This document shows, in pieces, positions 1 to 12,377 of a DNA stretch of 14,627 bases. Both the position numbers and the translations under genes were made by a program. The notes under the pieces are model-generated. The model ran no database searches. It had not been told where the DNA came from and worked only from the letters and a program-made list of their open reading frames with translations. Each line of letters opens with the position of its first letter. The first letter of the stretch is position 1. The DNA is from a bacterium. Lineage in GTDB: Bacteria; Sysuimicrobiota; Sysuimicrobiia; Sysuimicrobiales; Humicultoraceae. Location: contig JBGQGY010000097.1 in assembly GCA_041497675.1 (NCBI GenBank), forward strand, positions 1 through 14,627, given 5' to 3'.

Positions 1-141
1 ACCGGCAACCTCCTGATCGGATTGAGCGGCGTATTCTATCTCCTTTGCGGAAGTGACGTCGTGCGCTCGCTGCTGAGCGGGACGGCGCCACAGAGCGCGA
101 TCGATGTGGTGTTTCCCGTCAACTTCCAGGGATGGCGTTGA
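1..141 (+). CDS. 3' end of an unidentified CDS running in from the left edge (TGNLLIGLSGVFYLLCGSDVVRSLLSGTAPQSAIDVVFPVNFQGWR*)
   Basis: Frame 1 is open from base 1 to TGA at 139-141, with GC-rich third positions and a hydrophobic stretch. It converges on the hairpin at 191-228. Function not recognisable. Confidence 0.5.
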   Translation, partial: TGNLLIGLSGVFYLLCGSDVVRSLLSGTAPQSAIDVVFPVNFQGWR

Positions 142-190
142 CGGGTAGTTCTTCGCCGTCCTTCGTTTCCTCCGGTAACAAGCCACGCAA

Positions 191-228
191 AACAGAAGGG
201 GCCGGCTTCCGCACCGGCTCCTTCTGTT
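191..228. terminator. Intrinsic terminator hairpin, probably bidirectional
   Basis: AACAGAAGGGGCCGG (191-205), loop CTTCCGCA, CCGGCTCCTTCTGTT (214-228): 15-bp stem with one G/T position. On the - strand the 3' arm ends in TTCTGTT and continues TTG, 26 nt past the fasciclin stop. It lies between convergent genes. Confidence 0.8.
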
Positions 229-254
229 CGTTCCACGTACACCCCAGGCGACGT

Positions 255-740
255 CTACGGTTTCGGCAGGAACACCGTGTCGATCGCGTGGATGACCCCA
301 TTGCTCGCCAACACGTCGGCCCTGATGATCTTGGCGTTGTTGACCATTGGGGCGCCGTCCTTGACGGTAAACGTGACTTCCTGACCATTCACGGTCTTCG
401 CGGACTGCATCTTCGCCACGTCCGCGGCCAGCAGCCGCCCGGACACCACGTGAGAGGCCAGCAGTGCGGAGAGTTTCTGCTTGTCCTGCATCAGGGTATC
501 GAGCGTGCCTGCGGGCAGTTTCGCGAACGCCTCATCGGTCGGCGCGAACACGGTGAACGGTCCTTGACCTTTCAGCGTTGCCACCATCCCCGATTCCTGG
601 GCGGCTTTGATCAGCGTCTTGAACGTCCCGGCATCAGCGGCCGTATCGATCACATCTTTTGCCGGTTGTTGGGCCAGACTCTGGGCGGCACCGGCGGTGA
701 GCAGCAATGCCGCGATGGCAAACAGGCTCGTCATGCGCAT
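255..740 (-). CDS. Secreted fasciclin (FAS1) domain protein, MPT70/Nex18-like
   Basis: Sec signal peptide (MRMTSLFAIAALLLTAGAAQSLA), FAS1 H1 motif GPFTVFAPTDEAF and H2 motif ASNGVIHAIDTV. SD AAGGAGGG (748-755) is 7 nt before the ATG. Confidence 0.95.
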   Translation of the reverse strand: MRMTSLFAIAALLLTAGAAQSLAQQPAKDVIDTAADAGTFKTLIKAAQESGMVATLKGQGPFTVFAPTDEAFAKLPAGTLDTLMQDKQKLSALLASHVVSGRLLAADVAKMQSAKTVNGQEVTFTVKDGAPMVNNAKIIRADVLASNGVIHAIDTVFLPKP

Positions 741-955
741 GTCATATCCCTCCTTCAGCGTGGTAGTAACGCATCCATCAGCTGCGTGCTGACGCGGATC
801 GTCTGAATAGAGCCTCCTTTCCCGCAGCCTGGAGCCAAGGTCCAGTCAGGAGTCCGATGTGCAGGACCACGCGTGAGAGGATCAGGCGCCCATATTGTGC
901 GCCTTAGTGCCGTCCAAATTCCATTCATGCTCAGTGGAAATTCGGGGGAAGGGGA

Positions 956-4774: not shown

Positions 4775-5486
4775 TCCGGCGGTCCTGACGGTCGATCAGG
4801 TCGATCTCGCCTACGGCGAGGTCCAGGTCGTCTTCGGCGTCAGCCTCGAAGTGGGCGAGGGCGAACTGGTCGGGCTGGTGGGCGGCAACGGCAGCGGCAA
4901 ATCCACCGTCCTGCGCGCGATCTCGGGCATGCTGACCCCGAGAGCGGGCCGGATCATCTTTCACGGCCGGCAGATCAGCGGCCTCACCCCCCACCAGACG
5001 GCGGCGCTGGGCATCGCGCACGTCCCCATGGGACGCCAGCTCTTTACGGCGATGACCGTCGAAGAAAATCTGCTCGCCGGCTCGTTCCTGCCCAGGGCGC
5101 GAGCGCGCCGCGAGGCGAATCTCGAGAAGGTCTACATGCTCTTTCCGCGGCTCCACGAGCGGCGTGTGGAGGCGGTCGCCGCACTGAGCGGCGGCGAACA
5201 GCAAATGGTGGCCGTCGGCCGCGGCATGATGCTCGAACCGTCACTCTTTCTCATGGATGAGCCGACGATGGGCCTGTCACCCAAGCTGGTGGGCGAGGTG
5301 GCGCGGGTCATTCGGACGGTGGCGGATACGGGGGTCCCGATCTTGCTCGTGGAGCAGAATATCCGTCTGGCGTTGCGGTTGACCGATCGCGCCTACGTGC
5401 TGGAAAACGGCCGGCTCGTGCTGCACGGGCCCTCGAGCGAACTGTCCGGACATCCGGAGATCAGACGAGCCTATCTGGGGCTATAG
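4767..5486 (+). CDS. livF: HAAT ABC transporter ATP-binding subunit (LivF-type)
   Basis: Walker A GGNGSGKST, signature LSGGEQQM, MDEP, LVEQN and IRRAYLG. ATG 4767 overlaps the end of livG. Confidence 0.95.
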   Translation: MSSPAVLTVDQVDLAYGEVQVVFGVSLEVGEGELVGLVGGNGSGKSTVLRAISGMLTPRAGRIIFHGRQISGLTPHQTAALGIAHVPMGRQLFTAMTVEENLLAGSFLPRARARREANLEKVYMLFPRLHERRVEAVAALSGGEQQMVAVGRGMMLEPSLFLMDEPTMGLSPKLVGEVARVIRTVADTGVPILLVEQNIRLALRLTDRAYVLENGRLVLHGPSSELSGHPEIRRAYLGL

Positions 5487-5494
5487 GCAGAGGC

Positions 5495-6271
5495 CTACCG
5501 GGCGCTGGATGGGCGGCAGACCCGGCAGGGGCGGTAACCCGCCGCGGCCGCCTGACGCTCACCCCTGAACTCCACGCGGTGCCGACGCGCGATCCGGCGG
5601 GCGCGATGGCATGTCGGGAAGCAATAGATCTTCGTCGTGTCGCTTCCCACATAGCGCACGCCTTCGCGCGCAGAAGCCTCGATCGCACTGGGCCGCAGTC
5701 CCTCGGCCGCAAGCACGGCGCGCTTCATCCCAAGCCCGAAGATGTAACCCCCGAGCCCGCCGTCGGTTCGCACCACGCGATGGCATGGAAGCAACAGCGG
5801 GACAGGATTGGCCGCGAGGGCGGCGCCAACGGCCCGCGCCGATCCCGGCCGCCCGATCTCTGCCGCGATCCACGTGTAGGGCCGCACCTCTCCCCGCGGG
5901 ATCTCTCGGGTCTTCAGCAGGACCGCCCGCGCGAAAGACGACAGCCCGCGCAGGTCGCACCGCAGCGGTCGCCGCCGGCCGCCTTTCACCACGTCCTCGA
6001 TCCTCGCGGCCAACTGGGTGGGGAGGACCGTCGCCTGAAACGCCGGCCGGCCGAAGCGACGGCGAAAGCGGCGTTCGAACGCCGCCGTGCTTGCCGCCTG
6101 ATCCACCGCGGAGACGCCGTGGTGGTTCCACGCGACGAACAAACCCACGCCCGCCACGCGCACGCGAGCGTACCTGTCGGCGAGTCGCGCCCGCAGCAGC
6201 ACCGCGGGCAGCACGGTCCGCGGAGCCCGCACGTCGCCGAGCCGTGCCAGCCTGCGCCTGAGTCCCTCCAT
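5495..6271 (-). CDS. ogt: Methylated-DNA--protein-cysteine methyltransferase (Ogt-type) fused to a C-terminal Ada metal-binding domain
   Basis: IPRGEVRPY..IA...G....ARAVG.A...NPVPLLLPCHRVV...G.LGGY alkyltransferase signature, with the active Cys codon at 5783-5785. The last 52 aa (TTKIYCFPTC...AAAAGYRPCRVCRP) match the four-Cys Ada Zn domain. SD AGGAGG lies 7 nt before ATG 6271, which overlaps the sigma stop (TGATG). Confidence 0.93.
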   Translation of the reverse strand: MEGLRRRLARLGDVRAPRTVLPAVLLRARLADRYARVRVAGVGLFVAWNHHGVSAVDQAASTAAFERRFRRRFGRPAFQATVLPTQLAARIEDVVKGGRRRPLRCDLRGLSSFARAVLLKTREIPRGEVRPYTWIAAEIGRPGSARAVGAALAANPVPLLLPCHRVVRTDGGLGGYIFGLGMKRAVLAAEGLRPSAIEASAREGVRYVGSDTTKIYCFPTCHRARRIARRHRVEFRGERQAAAAGYRPCRVCRPSSAR

Positions 6272-6831
6272 CAACGTTCCTCCTGTATGTGCTTCTCCAG
6301 CAGCCGTCGCAGCCGGGCAAGACCTCGAGACGCGTTGGACTTCACCGTGCCGACGGGCTGACCGAGCGCGAGTGCGGCGTCGGTGTATCCCAGTCCGTTG
6401 ACGTGGCGCAGGATGACCGCGGCGCGGTACCGCACGGGTAGGGCGGCGACCAACGACGCCAGCTCTCGCCGCTGTTCATTTCCCTCATGCACCCGGTCGG
6501 GCGGCATGGCGCTCGCGTCCACCATGAGATCGCCGGCGTCATCGGCCAGGGGCACCGTCTCGAGCCGGCGGCCCCGGCGCCGGTTACGGCTCACGTTCAA
6601 TGTGATGCGGTAGAGCCACGGCTTGAGTCTCAGCGTTCGCACTCGCTCCGATCCGTATCCCGACAGCGCCCGGTAGGCGCGCACCAGCGCATCCTGGACG
6701 ACCTCCTCCGCATCTTGCCTGCTCCCCGTCAGGCGGAAGGCAAACGCAAACAGTCGGTCCTGATACACGCGCACCAGGTCCTCAAAGGCGCCTGCGGGGT
6801 CGTCCGCCAGCCGTTGCTCGAGCCTCCGCAT
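6271..6831 (-). CDS. ECF (group 4 sigma70) RNA polymerase sigma factor
   Basis: Region 2: AFEDLVRVYQDRLFAFAFRLTGSRQDAEEVVQDA...WLYRITLN. Region 4: LPVRYRAAVILR...LGQPVGTVKSNASRGLARL. 186 aa with no region 1 or 3. Confidence 0.95.
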   Translation of the reverse strand: MRRLEQRLADDPAGAFEDLVRVYQDRLFAFAFRLTGSRQDAEEVVQDALVRAYRALSGYGSERVRTLRLKPWLYRITLNVSRNRRRGRRLETVPLADDAGDLMVDASAMPPDRVHEGNEQRRELASLVAALPVRYRAAVILRHVNGLGYTDAALALGQPVGTVKSNASRGLARLRRLLEKHIQEER

Positions 6832-6838
6832 GACCCTT

Positions 6839-6866
6839 AGAACACCAGGCCGCGGTCCGCGGTTGC
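6839..6866 (-). promoter_or_regulatory. Putative ECF-dependent (autoregulatory, leaderless) promoter of the sigma-ogt operon
   Basis: The minus strand reads GCAACC-N15-GTGTTCT-aagggtc-ATG. AAC-type -35 and GTT-type -10 are typical of ECF promoters. The ATG is 7 nt past the -10 motif with no convincing SD. Confidence 0.65.
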
Positions 6867-6892
6867 AACTGTTTCGGCCGGGCGCGTGTTCT
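6865..6892 (+). promoter_or_regulatory. Putative second ECF-dependent promoter, divergent, toward the ParB-like gene
   Basis: The plus strand reads GCAACT-N15-GTGTTCT, with the same -10 and spacing as the minus-strand copy. It shares the palindrome GTTGCAAC (6862-6869). Confidence 0.55.
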
Positions 6893-7030
6893 TGGGGACG
6901 GCAATCGTCATGACATCACGTGCTCGACAGTAGGTCTCGCGTGCGCCGTCACGGATTTTGGGGCCTGGAAGACCGCCGGCGCTGCGCTCACACTAGCAGG
7001 ACTCGTTGCCGCCAGACAAAACAGTACCGT

Positions 7031-7936
7031 GTGACGTCGACCTGGACTACGTTTCCCAGCAAGGAACCGTCCCGAGAGGCCCGCGCGCTGGCAGCGCAGG
7101 TGGAGCGCGACGGAGGCCGTGTCCTGGCGATCTTTCAGGATCCCATCGGCGATCACTGGCACCTGTTCTGCATGTTGCTGTTGGACCAGGTCGAGCCGAC
7201 GCCTTTCCAGCGCGACCTCTCCCCGGCGCACATGAAGCGGCTTCATGACGTGATGCGCAAACTCGACCGCTTCGTGGACCCGATCGTCGTCACGTCGCCG
7301 GGTCCGGGCCGATATTGGACGCCCAACGGGAACCACCGCCGGGCGGCGCTGGAGAAACTCAAAGGCAAGCACATCCCGGCGATCGTGATCCCCGACACTG
7401 CCGTCGCGTATCAGATCCTGGCGCTCAATACGGAAAAGGCCCATAATCTGAAGGAAAAGTCGCTCGAAGTCATCAGGATGTATCGGGCGTTGGCCGAGGA
7501 GCGGGAACGCGCAACGGAGGATGACTACGCCTTCCAGTTTGAGTCGGCCCACTTTGTCACGCTCGGGCTCCTCTACGAAAAGAATCGCCGCTTTGCGGGT
7601 GGGGCGTTCGCGCCTATCCTGCGCCGCGTCGACAAATTTCTCACAACCAAACTACCCAAAGCGCTGGAAGAACGTGAGGCGCGTGCGGAACTGGTGCGCG
7701 CGGCGGATGAGGCGCTGTCCGCGGTCGTCGCCGGTCTCAAGAAACGGGGCATCCGACACCCGTACGTGAAAAACTTCGTCCTGGCGCGGGCGACGCCCCT
7801 GACGCGCGCGCGCAAGACGCTCCCCTCATTCGACGTCACGTTCAGGAAACTTGCCGAGAATGTCCGTGCGCTCGACGTGGCGAAGATCCGCTACGAGGAC
7901 GTGGCGCGGTCGGCGATCATGGGTGCGCCGGTATGA
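7031..7936 (+). CDS. Orphan ParB/Srx N-terminal-domain protein
   Basis: LDQVEPTPFQRDLS..HMKRL, DPIVV and YWTPNGNHRRAAL (GxxR arginine patch) fit the ParB/sulfiredoxin fold, followed by a helical C-terminal region. The start is uncertain: the ORF is open from GTG 6920, but its first 37 codons look non-coding, so GTG 7031 was chosen. Confidence 0.8.
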   Translation: MTSTWTTFPSKEPSREARALAAQVERDGGRVLAIFQDPIGDHWHLFCMLLLDQVEPTPFQRDLSPAHMKRLHDVMRKLDRFVDPIVVTSPGPGRYWTPNGNHRRAALEKLKGKHIPAIVIPDTAVAYQILALNTEKAHNLKEKSLEVIRMYRALAEERERATEDDYAFQFESAHFVTLGLLYEKNRRFAGGAFAPILRRVDKFLTTKLPKALEEREARAELVRAADEALSAVVAGLKKRGIRHPYVKNFVLARATPLTRARKTLPSFDVTFRKLAENVRALDVAKIRYEDVARSAIMGAPV

Positions 7937-7942
7937 TATCAT
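7934..7942 (+). promoter_or_regulatory. Extended -10 element (TGaTATCAT) for a likely leaderless histidine kinase mRNA
   Basis: TG (7934-7935), A, TATCAT (7937-7942), then 7 nt to ATG 7950 with no SD. Overlaps the TGA stop of the ParB-like gene. Confidence 0.5.
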
Positions 7943-7949
7943 TTCGCGC

Positions 7950-9059
7950 ATGAAGGCCGTCAAGACGCGGAGCAAACCCAAGACCAAGATCACACCTGCA
8001 AAGGAACTGCAAACTCTGCGACGACGAGTCGCCCGGTTGCAGACAGTCGCCGTCGAGTACCAGAACGCGCGGGCCAGCCACGACCGGCTGGCAACGTTTC
8101 CTGAACAGAACCCCAACATGGTGATTGAAACCGACCTCACGGGTCGCGTCACGTATCTCAATCCCGTCGCCCAGGTCCGGTTTCCGGATCTGTGGCGGCG
8201 GGGATTTTCTCATCCCCTGCTCGCGGACATGCCCTCGATCGTCAAGACCTTTCAGGACGGCAACGAGGCGTACGTGGCGCGCGAGGTCGACGTTGAGCAC
8301 GAGGCCTTCGAGCAGAAGATCTGTTACGCAAAGGGCACCGGCGCCGTTCGGATACTCGTGTATGTCCACGACATCACGCGGCGCAAGCGCGCGGAAGAAG
8401 CCATCCAGAAACTCGCGAAACAGGTCGTGTACGCTCAGGAAGAAGAACGCCACCGGTTGTCGCGTGAGCTCCACGACGAGGCGGGTCAGGCGCTGATGGC
8501 GCTCAAGCTCAGCCTGGAGCTGATCGCCGCCGAGCTCGGGCCCGGCGCAAACGAGCTGCGCCAGAATCTGTCGGAAGCGATTGCACTCACCGAATCGACC
8601 AAGGAACGCATCCGCGTGCTCGCCCAGGGCCTCCGCCCGCCGGCGCTCGACACCGTCGGCCTCAACCTCACGCTCGAGGCACTTTGCCGCGACTTCTCGC
8701 GGCGGACGCAGCTGCCGATCCGCTATGAAGGCTCAGAGGTGCCGGGTCTGTCCGACGCGATGAACATTTGCCTCTACCGCGTCTTGCAAGAGGCGCTCAC
8801 CAACGTGGCCAAGCACGCGAAGGCGACCCGTGTCGACGTGCGGCTGTCTCGTGAGGGGCACATCGTGCGCCTGTCCGTTGGCGACAACGGTCGGGGGTTC
8901 AGTCACGATGCCACTAAGATGTTGCAGCGGTGGACCGGGATCGGACTGCTGGGCATGCGCGAGCGTGTGGAATTGCTGGGTGGATGGCTCGAGATCGAGA
9001 CCGAACTCGGGCGCGGGCTTCGCACCGTCGCGAACCTACCGGTGAACCAAGAACCATGA
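7950..9059 (+). CDS. Cytoplasmic PAS-domain sensor histidine kinase (HisKA_3, NarX/UhpB-type)
   Basis: Coiled coil, then a PAS domain (FPEQNPNMVIETDLTGRVTYLN...HDITRRK), H-box ERHRLSRELHDEAGQ, N-box QEALTNVAKHA, G1 DNGRGF and G2 GIGLLGMRER. No TM segment. Start set at ATG 7950 to avoid overlap with the upstream gene. Confidence 0.93.
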   Translation: MKAVKTRSKPKTKITPAKELQTLRRRVARLQTVAVEYQNARASHDRLATFPEQNPNMVIETDLTGRVTYLNPVAQVRFPDLWRRGFSHPLLADMPSIVKTFQDGNEAYVAREVDVEHEAFEQKICYAKGTGAVRILVYVHDITRRKRAEEAIQKLAKQVVYAQEEERHRLSRELHDEAGQALMALKLSLELIAAELGPGANELRQNLSEAIALTESTKERIRVLAQGLRPPALDTVGLNLTLEALCRDFSRRTQLPIRYEGSEVPGLSDAMNICLYRVLQEALTNVAKHAKATRVDVRLSREGHIVRLSVGDNGRGFSHDATKMLQRWTGIGLLGMRERVELLGGWLEIETELGRGLRTVANLPVNQEP

Positions 9060-9703
9060 TCCGGGTGGTCGTGGCGGACGACCACAACCTGGTGCGCGAG
9101 GGCATCCGGGCGCTGCTCGAGAAGGCCGGCGACATCCAGGTCGTGGGCGAAGCCGTCGACGGACAAGAGGCCGTCGAACTGGTGAGGCGCGAAGCCCCTG
9201 ACGTCCTCGTCATGGATATCGCGATGCCCCGGCTCAACGGCATCCAGGCTGTCGAGCAGCTCAAGGCGGCAGGCGCCGAAACCCGCATCGTGATCCTCTC
9301 GATGTATTCCGAGGAGATCCTGGTCCGCCAGGCGCTGCAGCACGGCGCCAAGGGCTTCTTGCTAAAGGGTTCGGTGTCGGAGGAACTCCTACTCGCGATT
9401 CGCGCGGCCAACCGGGGCGCGGTCTATCTCAGCCCGGCGATCTCCCAAGTGGTCCTGACCGAACCTGCGGCCGGACAGCCGAACCTGCCGGGACCGGGGG
9501 CGCAACTGACCCCCCGCGAGCGCCAGATGCTGCAGTTGATCGGCGAAGGATACACCAACAGCCGGATCGCGGAAGCGCTTGGAATCAGCGTCAAGACGGT
9601 CGAACGCCATCGGACCAACTTGATGGCGAAGCTCAACGTCCATAACCTGGTCGAGTTGATCCGTGTGGCGATAAAGCACGGCCTGATCCGGCTGCAGGAC
9701 TGA
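9056..9703 (+). CDS. NarL/LuxR-family DNA-binding response regulator
   Basis: Receiver motifs VADDH, DIAMP, ILS and FLLK; LuxR HTH LTPRERQMLQLIGEGYTNSRIAEALGISVKTVERHR. ATGA overlap with the kinase stop. Confidence 0.96.
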   Translation: MIRVVVADDHNLVREGIRALLEKAGDIQVVGEAVDGQEAVELVRREAPDVLVMDIAMPRLNGIQAVEQLKAAGAETRIVILSMYSEEILVRQALQHGAKGFLLKGSVSEELLLAIRAANRGAVYLSPAISQVVLTEPAAGQPNLPGPGAQLTPRERQMLQLIGEGYTNSRIAEALGISVKTVERHRTNLMAKLNVHNLVELIRVAIKHGLIRLQD

Positions 9704-11338: not shown

Positions 11339-11929
11339 TTAGCCGCGGCACTTCTTGGGGGGCCGAGCGGCCTCCTCTTCACAGCGCCCGGGGCAGTTGT
11401 CCCAGGAAATCTTCAGCGTCTCGCTGTCGTAGACCGCGGTCCCATACCACCGCTTGTCGGAGAAGGCTTCGACCTGCGCGGGAATCGCCAAGCCGTTCTT
11501 TCGCAGCGTCGATCCCGCAGTCTTGGCCCCGGCCAGCGCCAGCCGTCTGGCCGTCTCCTTCGGGACGTCGCGCGCGAGGTCCATCGTCACCTTGACCTGG
11601 AGCCGGGGCCGGTCGAGCGCCACCACGCAGACGTTCCCTTCGACGTCAGGCTTCAACCCAGCGGTGATATCGTCCAACACCTGGTCGCTCACCTGAAGGG
11701 GCGCGGTCTGGATGGGCAAACCGATCTGCGGAACCGACTGCGAGTCCCTCAGGTAGTGATCTGATACGTAGTACCCGACCGAGAAGAACACGATAACCAT
11801 GACCACCCTGATGGCCAGGGCGACCCGCTGCTCACGCAGACGGATTTCCTCGCGAAACCGGGTCTGCGCTTCGACCCGGATCCGCTCCTCTTCGTACAGC
11901 CGCAGCCGGAACTCTGGTGAAAGACTCAC
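11339..11929 (-). CDS. Hypothetical single-pass membrane protein
   Basis: GGAGG (11937-11941) is 7 nt before GTG 11929. Charged helical N-terminus (SLSPEFRLRLYEEERIRVEAQ), one TM helix (VALAIRVVMVIVFFSVGYYV) and an alpha/beta-like C-terminal region with four Cys. Fills the gap without overlapping neighbours. Confidence 0.75.
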   Translation of the reverse strand: MSLSPEFRLRLYEEERIRVEAQTRFREEIRLREQRVALAIRVVMVIVFFSVGYYVSDHYLRDSQSVPQIGLPIQTAPLQVSDQVLDDITAGLKPDVEGNVCVVALDRPRLQVKVTMDLARDVPKETARRLALAGAKTAGSTLRKNGLAIPAQVEAFSDKRWYGTAVYDSETLKISWDNCPGRCEEEAARPPKKCRG

Positions 11930-12029
11930 AACCGGTCCTCCCGCCTCGCCGTGCGCGTCCCCGGCCACGTCGCATGGGGAGTTGGACTGCGTAGGGTGTC
12001 TCTAGTGATCTTCCCAAGTGGCGAGGGGT

Positions 12030-12377
12030 TCAGGCCCCGAGCGACCGGGCCGCGGTACAGCGCGGCGGCCGGCCATCGGTCTTCAGGGCTTCAATCCGGC
12101 TGCGCACGTTTCCGAGCCCCACGGTCATCTCCTGCATGGAATCGCGGAGATACACCATGCCCACCTCATCGCTGCTCGCCCGACCCAACACGATCTCATT
12201 GATGATCTGCACCGCCGCGCTGCCGACCTTTTCGGCGTCCTCCAAATCCTCGACGATGTTCGCGACGCAGGCGACGCGCGCAATCGGGGCCGGGGGCAGG
12301 ACGGCCCGCCCGACCCGCACGCCGGCTCCAAATGCGATGGCGATCCCCACAAGCGCAGGAACGAGTCGACGGACCAT
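12030..12377 (-). CDS. Hypothetical exported or membrane-anchored small protein
   Basis: SD GGGGGGTGA upstream, the same style as for the SBP gene. Signal/anchor MVRRLVPALVGIAIAFGAGV, then two amphipathic helices flanked by two Cys. Confidence 0.7.
   Translation of the reverse strand: MVRRLVPALVGIAIAFGAGVRVGRAVLPPAPIARVACVANIVEDLEDAEKVGSAAVQIINEIVLGRASSDEVGMVYLRDSMQEMTVGLGNVRSRIEALKTDGRPPRCTAARSLGA

What the first reader, a model, noticed from the sequence alone, without database searches (positions are those of the whole stretch)
5495..6831. ECF sigma factor coupled to an Ada-like sensor that lacks its own DNA-binding domain: candidate sigma-based adaptive response to alkylation
Seen: the sigma stop overlaps the start of the alkyltransferase (TGATG, with an AGGAGG SD). 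The alkyltransferase keeps the PCHRV cysteine and all four Ada Zn cysteines (YCFPTC...RPCRVC) but shows no AraC HTH. Established: E. coli Ada and B. subtilis AdaA convert methylation of the Zn-domain Cys into transcription activation via an AraC HTH, and the gene coupled downstream of an ECF sigma is usually its regulator. Inference: the ECF replaces the AraC output, and the repair protein acts as a methylation-sensing anti-sigma (or co-activator), so suicide methylation switches on the regulon. No conventional anti-sigma gene is nearby. The pairing may already be catalogued as genomic context, but I know of no characterised mechanism.
Basis: partly seen in the sequence, partly recalled or inferred. 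Interest (0 to 1): 0.85.

Follow-up and report, generated by a model that had tools for sequence, protein, structure and literature searches.

The report
Sigma factor paired with suicide alkyltransferase
A small alternative sigma factor is made together with a DNA-repair enzyme that permanently alkylates itself, and the enzyme carries the leftover of an anti-sigma domain, so it probably acts as the sigma factor's damage-sensing brake, although nobody has tested this.

Summary
An ECF sigma gene (6271-6831, minus strand) overlaps by one base (TGATG, AGGAGG Shine-Dalgarno) a 258-aa gene (5495-6271). That gene encodes an O6-alkylguanine alkyltransferase (PCHRV) plus an Ada-type Cys4 zinc domain, with no AraC HTH.

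The pair is a strictly conserved module:
- 77 of 77 judgeable relatives, mostly labelled Chloroflexota, have the sigma directly upstream; 55 have a 4-nt overlap.
- A conserved ECF-type promoter, TGCAAC-N16-GTGTTC, sits about 10 nt before the sigma start.
- The partner's first ~30 residues are homologous to the last helices of a zinc anti-sigma domain (ZAS).
- A sister family carries the full ZAS domain on the alkyltransferase. It is sigma-linked in 70 of 70 loci and is naturally fused to the sigma in two proteins.

My best reading (0.55) is that the alkyltransferase is the cognate anti-sigma and is inactivated by its own alkylation. Binding and signal are inferred; the complex predictor was unavailable.

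Predicted targets are not classical repair genes. They are an F420-dependent oxidoreductase and a ParB-like gene here, and an EamA exporter elsewhere.

The gene pairing is already catalogued (ECF122/ECF203, Casas-Pastor 2021) without a mechanism. This scan has flagged the same module three times before on other DNA.

The parts
6271..6831 (-). ECF sigma factor gene (186 aa; stop TGA at 6273-6271)
   Evidence: Pfam Sigma70_r2 and Sigma70_r4_2. NCBIfam TIGR02937 sigma70-ECF scores 77 bits against a cut-off of 42.9.
5495..6271 (-). Alkyltransferase / Ada-zinc partner gene (258 aa from the ATG at 6271-6269). Its start overlaps the sigma stop by 1 nt.
   Evidence: An identical 258-aa protein, P0003, is in the protein collection. 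AlphaFold2 gives pLDDT 91.9. Foldseek matches Ada-C 1sfe (E 1.1e-11) and N-Ada 1u8b.
6279..6284 (-). Shine-Dalgarno AGGAGG, 7 nt before the partner's ATG and inside the end of the sigma gene
   Evidence: Read directly from the sequence.
6182..6271 (-). N-terminal ~30 residues of the partner: two short helices outside the alkyltransferase fold, homologous to the last helices of a ZAS anti-sigma domain
   Evidence: The conserved pattern L..L....AP..L.P.VL appears. MAFFT places it next to the segment after HxxxCxxC in P0250 and P0254. hhalign of A3 against A8 covers residues 4-30 (probability 100, E 4.9e-47 for the whole match). AlphaFold2 predicts helices 2-11 and 20-27 with block pLDDT of 78 and 67.
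5699..5935 (-). O6-alkylguanine alkyltransferase C-terminal (DNA-binding) domain, with the acceptor Cys of PCHRV at 5783-5785
   Evidence: PF01035, E 1.2e-27. One search gives the same coordinates. P, C, H and R are invariant.
5510..5665 (-). Ada-type Cys4 zinc domain (methyl-phosphotriester acceptor type)
   Evidence: PF02805, E 4.9e-11. It is the only copy in the genome. All four Cys are invariant. It matches the methylated N-Ada/DNA complex 1u8b_A over 51 columns at rmsd 1.8.
6835..6869 (-). Predicted autoregulatory ECF-type promoter of the sigma operon. -35 TGCAAC at 6867-6862; -10 GTGTTC at 6845-6840, ending about 9 nt before the ATG, which suggests a leaderless or nearly leaderless transcript.
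   Evidence: The motif G[CA]AAC-N18-GTT occurs in 65 of 77 upstream regions. A PWM trained without the window scores this site 23.5, third best in the 3.97-Mb genome, against a reversed-sequence control maximum of 22.2.
6862..6896 (+). Predicted divergent promoter of the same type. It shares the palindrome GTTGCAAC (6862-6869) as its -35; the -10 GTGTTC is at 6886-6891.
   Evidence: PWM score 24.2, second best in the genome. Similar divergent sites occur in L002, L003 and G075.
7100..7936 (+). Divergent ORF downstream of the second promoter, encoding a ParB_N-like protein of unknown role. The start is uncertain: the frame is open from 6920 and the coding signal begins at about 7040-7070.
   Evidence: GC-frame plot. 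No Pfam hit. Weak NCBIfam SerK/ParB hits below cut-off. In the protein atlas the nearest clusters are ParB_N-bearing, with scores of 0.98-0.99.

Best explanation
This is a self-contained, autoregulated sigma/anti-sigma switch in which the anti-sigma factor is a suicide DNA-alkylation repair protein.

The ECF sigma and the alkyltransferase are made in fixed proportion from one transcript, which is leaderless or has a very short leader. At rest, the alkyltransferase holds the sigma through its N-terminal remnant of a zinc anti-sigma domain, possibly helped by other surfaces.

When alkylated DNA appears, the protein irreversibly takes an alkyl group. The acceptor is Cys163 (PCHRV; O6-alkylguanine or O4-alkylthymine lesions), the first zinc-domain cysteine (methyl-phosphotriesters), or both. 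The alkylated protein is then altered, tied up on DNA or degraded, and it lets the sigma go.

The free sigma transcribes its own operon from TGCAAC-N16-GTGTTC. This replaces the spent repair protein and resets the switch. It also transcribes a small lineage-specific set of other genes. Here these are a divergent ParB_N-like gene and an F420-dependent LLM oxidoreductase on another contig. In many relatives the extra gene is an EamA-family exporter.

Shown: the domain make-up, the conserved catalytic and zinc residues, the strict linkage, the translational coupling, the conserved promoter, the homology to an anti-sigma domain, and sister forms with a full ZAS domain or fused to the sigma.

Inferred: physical binding, which surface binds, and alkylation as the releasing signal.
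For: 1. Linkage. 77 of 77 relatives with upstream DNA have a P0001-like sigma (40-57% identical) directly upstream on the same strand. Three further loci have too little upstream DNA to judge. In the reverse test within the window's own phylum, 3 of 3 sigma hits at 50% identity or more have the partner downstream. 6 of 6 hits at 41% or less do not.

2. Coupling. 55 of 77 pairs have a 4-nt start/stop overlap by my start-codon choice. The window has TGATG plus AGGAGG.

3. Anti-sigma ancestry.
- P0250 and P0254 have zf-HC2 + PF01035 + PF02805 and are 47% and 40% identical to the window's protein. The window's N-terminus aligns to the segment just after their HxxxCxxC.
- The profile-profile alignment with the ZAS-alkyltransferase family includes residues 4-30.
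- That sister family has invariant C-x24-H-x3-C-x2-C and PCHR. 6 of 28 members hit zf-HC2 at E of 0.01 or less.
- It is sigma-linked in 70 of 70 loci that have at least 600 nt upstream.
- It occurs as in-frame sigma-ZAS-alkyltransferase fusions in two proteins, P0123 and P0146, which are 79% identical.

4. Autoregulation. The promoter motif is present in 65 of 77 upstream regions. 63 have the exact N18 spacing, and in 52 the GTT lies 12-15 nt before the start.

5. No other candidate regulator. No Pfam anti-sigma family was found nearby, and the genome has no AraC-type Ada.

6. The protein looks catalytically competent. The Tyr, Arg, Asn, Cys-His and Glu positions and all four zinc cysteines are invariant, and the fold matches Ada-C and N-Ada.
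Against:
- The window's protein keeps only about 30 residues of the anti-sigma domain and lacks the HxxxCxxC zinc site. It may have lost sigma binding.
- The AlphaFold2 model of the natural sigma-ZAS-alkyltransferase fusion gave pTM 0.43. It therefore says nothing about how the domains pack.
- The predicted targets are not DNA-repair genes. Only the top three PWM hits exceed the reversed-sequence control, and by 1.3-2.5 bits.
- The 80 loci are the best 80 of 588 relatives, so more distant members were not examined. They are also kin and not independent.
- The published catalogue regards ECF203 as lacking a regulator and as not autoregulated, and it proposes a TetR repressor instead.
Confidence: 0.55

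Rival explanations
1. Plain co-transcription. The sigma factor simply drives its own operon, and the alkyltransferase is only a regulon member, that is, an inducible repair enzyme. Sigma activity would be set by something else, such as transcription from another regulator, proteolysis, or the neighbouring two-component system. The anti-sigma remnant would then be an evolutionary leftover without function.
For: Only about 30 residues of the anti-sigma domain remain, and the zinc motif is gone. The published view of ECF203 is 'no obvious regulator', with TetR control proposed. A histidine kinase and a LuxR-type response regulator lie 1 kb away at 7851-9703. The genome has a second full alkyltransferase on contig C171, so this copy need not be the housekeeping enzyme or a sensor.
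Against: The N-terminal segment lies outside the alkyltransferase fold yet is conserved across sequences only 50-60% identical. 55 of 77 pairs overlap by 4 nt, as is usual for sigma/anti-sigma pairs. No other regulator is conserved across the loci: the recurrent neighbours are an EamA transporter, a GNAT and oxidoreductases. The kinase/regulator pair is not among the recurrent neighbours. The sister family has a bona fide ZAS domain on the same enzyme.
Confidence: 0.25
2. Positive co-factor, working like Ada. The methylated protein binds DNA through its neutralised zinc site and contacts sigma region 4, stimulating transcription by the ECF holoenzyme instead of inhibiting the free sigma.
For: From general knowledge, not tested here: methylated E. 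coli Ada activates by contacting RNA polymerase, including sigma-70 region 4. The zinc domain is fully conserved and matches the methylated N-Ada/DNA complex.
Against: The homology is to an anti-sigma (inhibitory) domain. The sister family works without any Ada zinc domain. There is no sequence-specific HTH to position the protein at a promoter. I noticed no conserved motif resembling an 'Ada box' upstream of the -35 across all loci in the printed upstream regions (by eye only).
Confidence: 0.08
3. Direct chemical sensor. The reactive zinc-thiolate site, or Cys163, is alkylated directly by small electrophiles such as methyl halides, sulfonate esters or a natural product, and not through damaged DNA. 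The module would then control detoxification and export, not DNA repair. This is a variant of the best explanation with a different signal.
For: The predicted or linked targets are an F420-dependent LLM oxidoreductase (best PWM hit in the genome), which in L007, L032 and L052 sits between the promoter and the sigma. An EamA exporter is present in 53 of 80 loci: in 51 as a third gene on the same strand, and in 2 divergent behind the same motif. No classical repair gene is among the top 16 PWM hits.
Against: The full set of DNA-lesion-recognition residues of the alkyltransferase is invariant, which argues that DNA lesions are the substrate. No chemistry was tested.
Confidence: 0.1

Closest known systems
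ECF203 group of the ECF sigma classification (Casas-Pastor et al. 2021, NAR; supplementary text and main text seen as passages)
   Same: An ECF sigma whose +1 gene is an O6-methylguanine methyltransferase carrying the Pfam Ada_Zn_binding domain. No recognised anti-sigma factor, and no characterised member.
   Different: ECF203 is described as 100% Actinobacteria with few members, with conserved TetR and MFS neighbours and no conserved promoter, hence 'not autoregulated'. Here most relatives are labelled Chloroflexota, Entotheonella and others. No TetR or MFS is in the window, and a strongly conserved promoter is present. Group membership could not be tested because the group HMMs are not available.
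ECF122 group (same source)
   Same: [quoted passage not shown]
   Different: The ECF122 partner is described with ribonuclease-like and DNA-binding domains and no Ada zinc domain. It is Actinobacteria only, with predicted promoter CTCAC / CGTCTAC. Here the promoter is TGCAAC / GTGTTC.
ZAS (zinc-binding) class I anti-sigma factors such as RsrA, RslA and ChrR (recalled from general knowledge)
   Same: A cytoplasmic, co-transcribed partner of an autoregulated ECF sigma. The N-terminus here is homologous to the last helices of a ZAS domain. A reactive zinc-thiolate site is the presumed sensor.
   Different: The HxxxCxxC zinc site and the first helices are missing. The zinc site is instead an Ada-type Cys4 domain at the other end of the protein. 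The presumed signal is irreversible alkyl transfer, not reversible oxidation.
E. coli Ada and B. subtilis AdaA/AdaB adaptive response (recalled; NCBIfam PRK15435 Ada matched below cut-off)
   Same: The same two acceptor modules, an Ada zinc domain and an O6-alkylguanine alkyltransferase, in one protein that controls its own synthesis.
   Different: The domain order is reversed: alkyltransferase first, zinc domain last. There is no AraC HTH. The output is presumed to go through a separate ECF sigma, and the predicted regulon lacks alkA-, alkB- or aidB-type genes among the top hits.

Membership tests
ECF (group 4) sigma-70 family | Only regions sigma-2 and sigma-4, about 170-220 aa | tested here: met
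   PF04542 and PF08281 with no region 3 or 1.2. TIGR02937 scores 77 bits against a cut-off of 42.9.
ECF203 | +1 gene is an O6-methylguanine methyltransferase with Ada_Zn_binding | tested here: met
   PF01035 and PF02805 in the +1 protein.
ECF203 | Match to the group's own HMM or tree position | not testable with these tools
   No ECF-group HMMs or reference sequences are held.
ECF203 | Actinobacteria only; TetR and MFS neighbours; no conserved promoter | tested here: not met
   Record titles are mostly Chloroflexota. No TetR or MFS is in the window. The promoter is conserved in 65 of 77.
ECF122 | Predicted promoter CTCAC (-35) / CGTCTAC (-10) | tested here: not met
   The promoter found is TGCAAC-N16-GTGTTC.
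O6-alkylguanine-DNA alkyltransferase (Ogt / Ada-C / MGMT) | PCHR(V) acceptor cysteine with the conserved Tyr, Arg, Asn and Glu, and the two-domain fold | tested here: met
   PF01035 E 1.2e-27. Y132, R146, N155, C163, H164 and E190 are invariant in 40 of 40. Foldseek 1sfe: E 1.1e-11, TM 0.80 on the target.
Ada N-terminal zinc domain | Four cysteine zinc ligands (C-x3-C ... C-x2-C) | tested here: met
   PF02805 E 4.9e-11. The four Cys are invariant. Match to 1u8b_A.
Ada / AdaA transcription activators | AraC-type helix-turn-helix output domain | tested here: not met
   No HTH_18 or AraC hit. NCBIfam Ada scores 98 bits against a cut-off of 345.
ZAS class I anti-sigma domain | HxxxCxxC zinc motif and a four-helix anti-sigma domain | tested here: not met
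   The motif is absent from the 258-aa protein. Only the last ~30 residues of the domain are alignable. The full motif is present in relatives P0250 and P0254 and in family A8.
Anti-sigma factor (functional class) | Binds its sigma and blocks core binding | not tested
   The complex predictor was unavailable. This needs a bench test.

The most novel reading that the evidence does not exclude
A stoichiometric 'damage counter'. Each irreversible alkyl transfer consumes one anti-sigma molecule and frees one sigma molecule, so transcription is proportional to the lesions repaired. This would be a sigma/anti-sigma switch run by covalent self-alkylation of a repair enzyme. It appears to have replaced the AraC-type Ada circuit in Chloroflexota and other soil phyla. 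In this lineage the ancestral ZAS zinc sensor was cut away, and an Ada-type zinc-thiolate methyl acceptor sits at the other end of the protein.
Probability: 0.4. Interest if true: 0.8.

Novelty: new variant of a known kind. Interest (0 to 1): 0.6.

Why it matters
The Ada response is the textbook case of a repair protein turning its own chemical modification into gene activation. If this module works as proposed, the same chemistry is wired to a different output, release of an ECF sigma factor. That would give a mechanism to two catalogued but unexplained ECF groups.

The module is widespread. There are more than 3,200 partner-like proteins in the protein search and 588 relatives in one-genome-per-species contigs, mostly in uncultured soil lineages.

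The study also yields a defined promoter and a compact two-gene sensor for DNA alkylation that could be tested directly in a heterologous host.

Tried and rejected
- Complex prediction of sigma with partner: the tool answered that it is not available, nothing was folded and the job was not counted.
- As another look at the same question, I folded a naturally fused sigma-ZAS-alkyltransferase protein (P0146, alignment A7). Mean pLDDT was 79.8 but pTM 0.43, and the linker and part of the anti-sigma region were below 50. It says nothing about inter-domain contacts.
- A first alignment for that job (A6) put the sigma rows onto the wrong half. It was discarded and replaced by A7.
- hhalign of the family against the single sequence P0123 did not reach the N-terminal segment. 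The profile-profile comparison did.
- The search for longer proteins with the sigma found no fusion of the sigma with the alkyltransferase-Ada_Zn type, only with the ZAS type. P0248, P0259 and P0260 look frame-shifted over part of their length.
- PWM hits scoring between 16 and 23 in the genome are not clearly above the reversed-sequence control (13 versus 3 at 16 or more; 6 versus 2 at 19 or more). I did not treat them as targets. The C216 hit lies inside an ABC substrate-binding gene.
- Pfam gave nothing for the divergent ORF.
- Literature searches found no paper with an experimental mechanism. Huang et al. 2015, the original ECF122 description, is not held.
- I did not attempt co-evolution (mirror-tree or DCA) on 77 kin pairs, because it would have too little power.
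Full report
**What is there**

On the minus strand, a 186-aa ORF (6831 to 6271) is followed by a 258-aa ORF (ATG 6271-6269, ending at 5495). The sigma stop TGA and the next ATG share one base (TGATG). AGGAGG lies 7 nt before that ATG.

- Pfam calls the first protein Sigma70_r2 plus Sigma70_r4_2.
- Pfam calls the second PF01035 (residues 114-192, PCHRV) plus PF02805 Ada_Zn_binding (residues 204-255). No AraC HTH is reported.
- NCBIfam places the first protein in sigma70-ECF (77 bits, cut-off 42.9). It matches the second to Ogt/Ada-C far below the Ada equivalog cut-off.
- The operon has two genes. It is bounded by a convergent branched-chain amino-acid ABC transporter (ending at 5486) and by a divergent region. 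No Pfam anti-sigma family is nearby.

One wording needs adjusting: the protein retains non-specific DNA-binding parts and lacks only the AraC output.

**The partner protein**

It belongs to a large, uniform family. More than 3,210 hits were found, and the best 120 are all about 255-290 aa with PF01035 plus PF02805.

- In 34 and 40 aligned members, the acceptor PCHR, the Tyr/Arg/Asn/Glu of the alkyltransferase site and all four zinc cysteines are invariant.
- AlphaFold2 gives a confident model: pLDDT 91.9, pTM 0.84.
- Foldseek matches it to E. coli Ada-C (1sfe, E 1.1e-11). Its C-terminal part matches the methylated N-Ada/DNA complex (1u8b_A, 51 columns, rmsd 1.8).
- By sequence and fold it is therefore a competent double alkyl acceptor, with the Ada domains in reversed order.

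**Linkage**

A scan of one genome per species found 588 relatives, of which the best 80 were kept. By record title they are mostly Chloroflexota (Limnocylindrales, Anaerolineae, Ktedonobacterales, Thermomicrobiales), with Entotheonella and some Actinomycetota.

- 77 of the 80 have upstream DNA. All 77 carry a homologue of the window's sigma (40-57% identical) directly upstream on the same strand. The other three have fewer than 140 nt upstream.
- In two loci (L036, L056) the sigma looks truncated.
- By my start-codon choice, 55 of 77 pairs overlap by 4 nt.
- The reverse test covered the window's own phylum (94 genomes, 8 with a hit at E of 1e-25 or less, including the window's genome). The three sigma hits at 50% identity or more all have the partner downstream. 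The six hits at 41% or less do not.
- One of those six, L095, is from the unpublished genome G024. Without it the count is five of five.
- The module is patchy: 4 of 94 genomes in the phylum have it.

**Promoter and regulon**

Upstream of the sigma starts, 65 of 77 regions (76 loci plus the window) contain G[CA]AAC-N17-20-GTT.

- 63 have exactly N18.
- In 52 the GTT lies 12-15 nt before the start codon. This implies a leaderless or very short-leader transcript.
- In ten of the remaining twelve loci the motif lies further upstream, found in a 3-kb search where chance hits are not negligible.
- In the window the site is TGCAAC (6867-6862) and GTGTTC (6845-6840).

A weight matrix trained without the window gives three hits of 23 or more in the 3.97-Mb genome. 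The reversed-sequence control gives none, with a maximum of 22.2. The three hits are:
- the sigma promoter itself;
- a divergent promoter sharing the palindromic -35 (GTTGCAAC, 6862-6869), which points at a ParB_N-like ORF;
- a site 35 nt upstream of an F420-dependent LLM oxidoreductase on contig C53 (TIGR03621, 320 bits against a cut-off of 213).

The oxidoreductase link is corroborated independently. In L007, L032 and L052 its homologue (55-59% identical) sits between the motif and the sigma gene.

In three related genomes the strict pattern gave 5 hits against 0 for the control. Two precede the sigma, one (duplicated) precedes an unknown ORF, and one is a divergent promoter of an EamA transporter.

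An EamA homologue occurs in 53 of 80 loci. In 51 it is a third gene on the same strand, and in 2 it is divergent behind the motif. No classical alkylation-repair gene is among the top 16 matrix hits.

**Anti-sigma ancestry**

A search for longer relatives of the sigma found P0123. It is an in-frame fusion of an ECF sigma, a segment with HxxxCxxC (weak zf-HC2 hit, E 0.0034) and an alkyltransferase without the Ada zinc domain.

Searching with its C-terminal 250 residues found:
- a second fusion, P0146, 79% identical overall, on a 1.36-Mb contig;
- about a hundred clusters of 253-270-aa proteins with the same ZAS-like N-terminus;
- two proteins (P0250, P0254) with zf-HC2 + PF01035 + PF02805.

In that sister family:
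- C-x24-H-x3-C-x2-C and PCHR are invariant in 28 of 28;
- 6 of 28 reach zf-HC2 at E of 0.01 or less;
- 70 of 70 metagenome loci with at least 600 nt upstream have a sigma directly upstream;
- 57 of 62 upstream regions contain TGAAACC, read by eye as the -35 of a related TGAAACC...GTGGTC promoter close to the start.

The window's N-terminal 30 residues align to the segment just after the zinc motif of P0250 and P0254. They are also included in the profile-profile alignment with the sister family (probability 100). They are therefore a remnant of the last helices of a zinc anti-sigma domain. They are conserved although they lie outside the alkyltransferase fold. They are predicted as two short helices of lower confidence.

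**Interpretation**

The simplest account of all this is that the alkyltransferase is the cognate anti-sigma factor of an autoregulated ECF sigma, and that its own irreversible alkylation is the releasing signal. I put this at 0.55. Binding and signal are inferences: the complex predictor was unavailable, and the fold of the natural fusion was uninformative about domain packing (pTM 0.43).

The rivals are:
- plain co-transcription of an inducible repair enzyme (0.25);
- a direct small-electrophile sensor controlling detoxification and export, which fits the regulon (0.10);
- an Ada-like positive co-factor (0.08).

The genome has no other Ada zinc domain. It does have two other PF01035 proteins: one with a Phd-antitoxin-like N-terminus, and one alkyltransferase-like protein with PWWRV in place of PCHRV.

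**What is known**

The pairing is catalogued. In Casas-Pastor et al. 2021 I saw passages of the supplementary text and of the main text.
- ECF122 is described as having a +1 methylguanine methyltransferase, no anti-sigma factor, and promoter CTCAC/CGTCTAC.
- ECF203 is described as having a +1 methyltransferase with Ada_Zn_binding, TetR and MFS neighbours, and no conserved promoter. It 'lacks any obvious regulator'.
- Both groups are described as 100% Actinobacteria.

A 2022 review (passages seen) lists ECF122 under 'unknown mechanism' and ECF203 under proposed transcriptional control. My searches found no experimental study. Huang et al. 2015 could not be read.

By partner architecture the window resembles ECF203. 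By taxonomy, neighbours and promoter it does not fit the description. Group HMMs were not available.

Three earlier notes of this scan describe the same module on other genomes and reach the same reading. They are not independent evidence, and I tested their main claims myself.

**Verdict**

This is a real, conserved and widespread module. The genomic pairing is already known, the mechanism is untested, and the comparative support for 'alkyltransferase as anti-sigma' is good. The window's form is a derived variant: a truncated anti-sigma domain with an Ada zinc domain at the C-terminus.

Noticed in passing
G000 contig C171, locus L087:1045-1770 (+): A second full alkyltransferase (PCHRV) in the same genome. 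It carries an N-terminal Phd/YefM antitoxin-like domain (TIGR01552, 31.9 bits against a cut-off of 20.8) fused to the Ogt fold. This is another case of the repair enzyme attached to a regulator-type domain.
   Followed up: partly
G000 contig C27, locus L089:1453-1755 (-): A 100-aa alkyltransferase-like protein with PWWRV in place of PCHRV, so it has no acceptor cysteine. It appears to be an ATL-type damage-binding protein.
   Followed up: partly
window 6862-6896 (+) and 7100-7936 (+): A divergent promoter of the same ECF type shares the palindrome GTTGCAAC with the sigma promoter. It points at a ParB_N-like ORF with no Pfam hit, whose start is uncertain (possible leader of about 200 nt).
   Followed up: partly
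G000 contig C53:16101-17142 (+), locus L082:3166-4143: The best genome-wide match to the sigma's promoter lies 35 nt upstream of a TIGR03621 F420-dependent LLM oxidoreductase. Homologues sit between promoter and sigma in L007, L032 and L052.
   Followed up: yes
loci L001-L080, downstream of the partner gene: An EamA-family transporter is the commonest third gene (51 of 80 on the same strand, 2 divergent behind the motif). The window's genome has only 30-34% identical EamA proteins, elsewhere in the genome.
   Followed up: partly
Limnocylindrales-type loci such as L029, L041, L063 and L075, 25-90 nt upstream of the sigma -35: Two further conserved words, GGGTACCGT and ATTGTCGCA, recur upstream of the promoter. 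They may belong to a divergent leaderless gene or to a second regulator site. This is unexplained.
   Followed up: no
loci L105-L184, upstream of the sigma: The sister (ZAS-alkyltransferase) family has its own conserved word TGAAACC (57 of 62), read by eye as part of a TGAAACC...GTGGTC promoter close to the start codon. It resembles the window's motif in layout and differs by one base in each element.
   Followed up: partly
window 7851-9703 (+): A HisKA_3 histidine kinase and a LuxR-type response regulator lie next to the module. They are not among the recurrent neighbours in related loci.
   Followed up: no
window 132-806 (+), 11339-11968 (-), 12030-12377 (-): Three ORFs of 115-224 aa without any Pfam family.
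   Followed up: no
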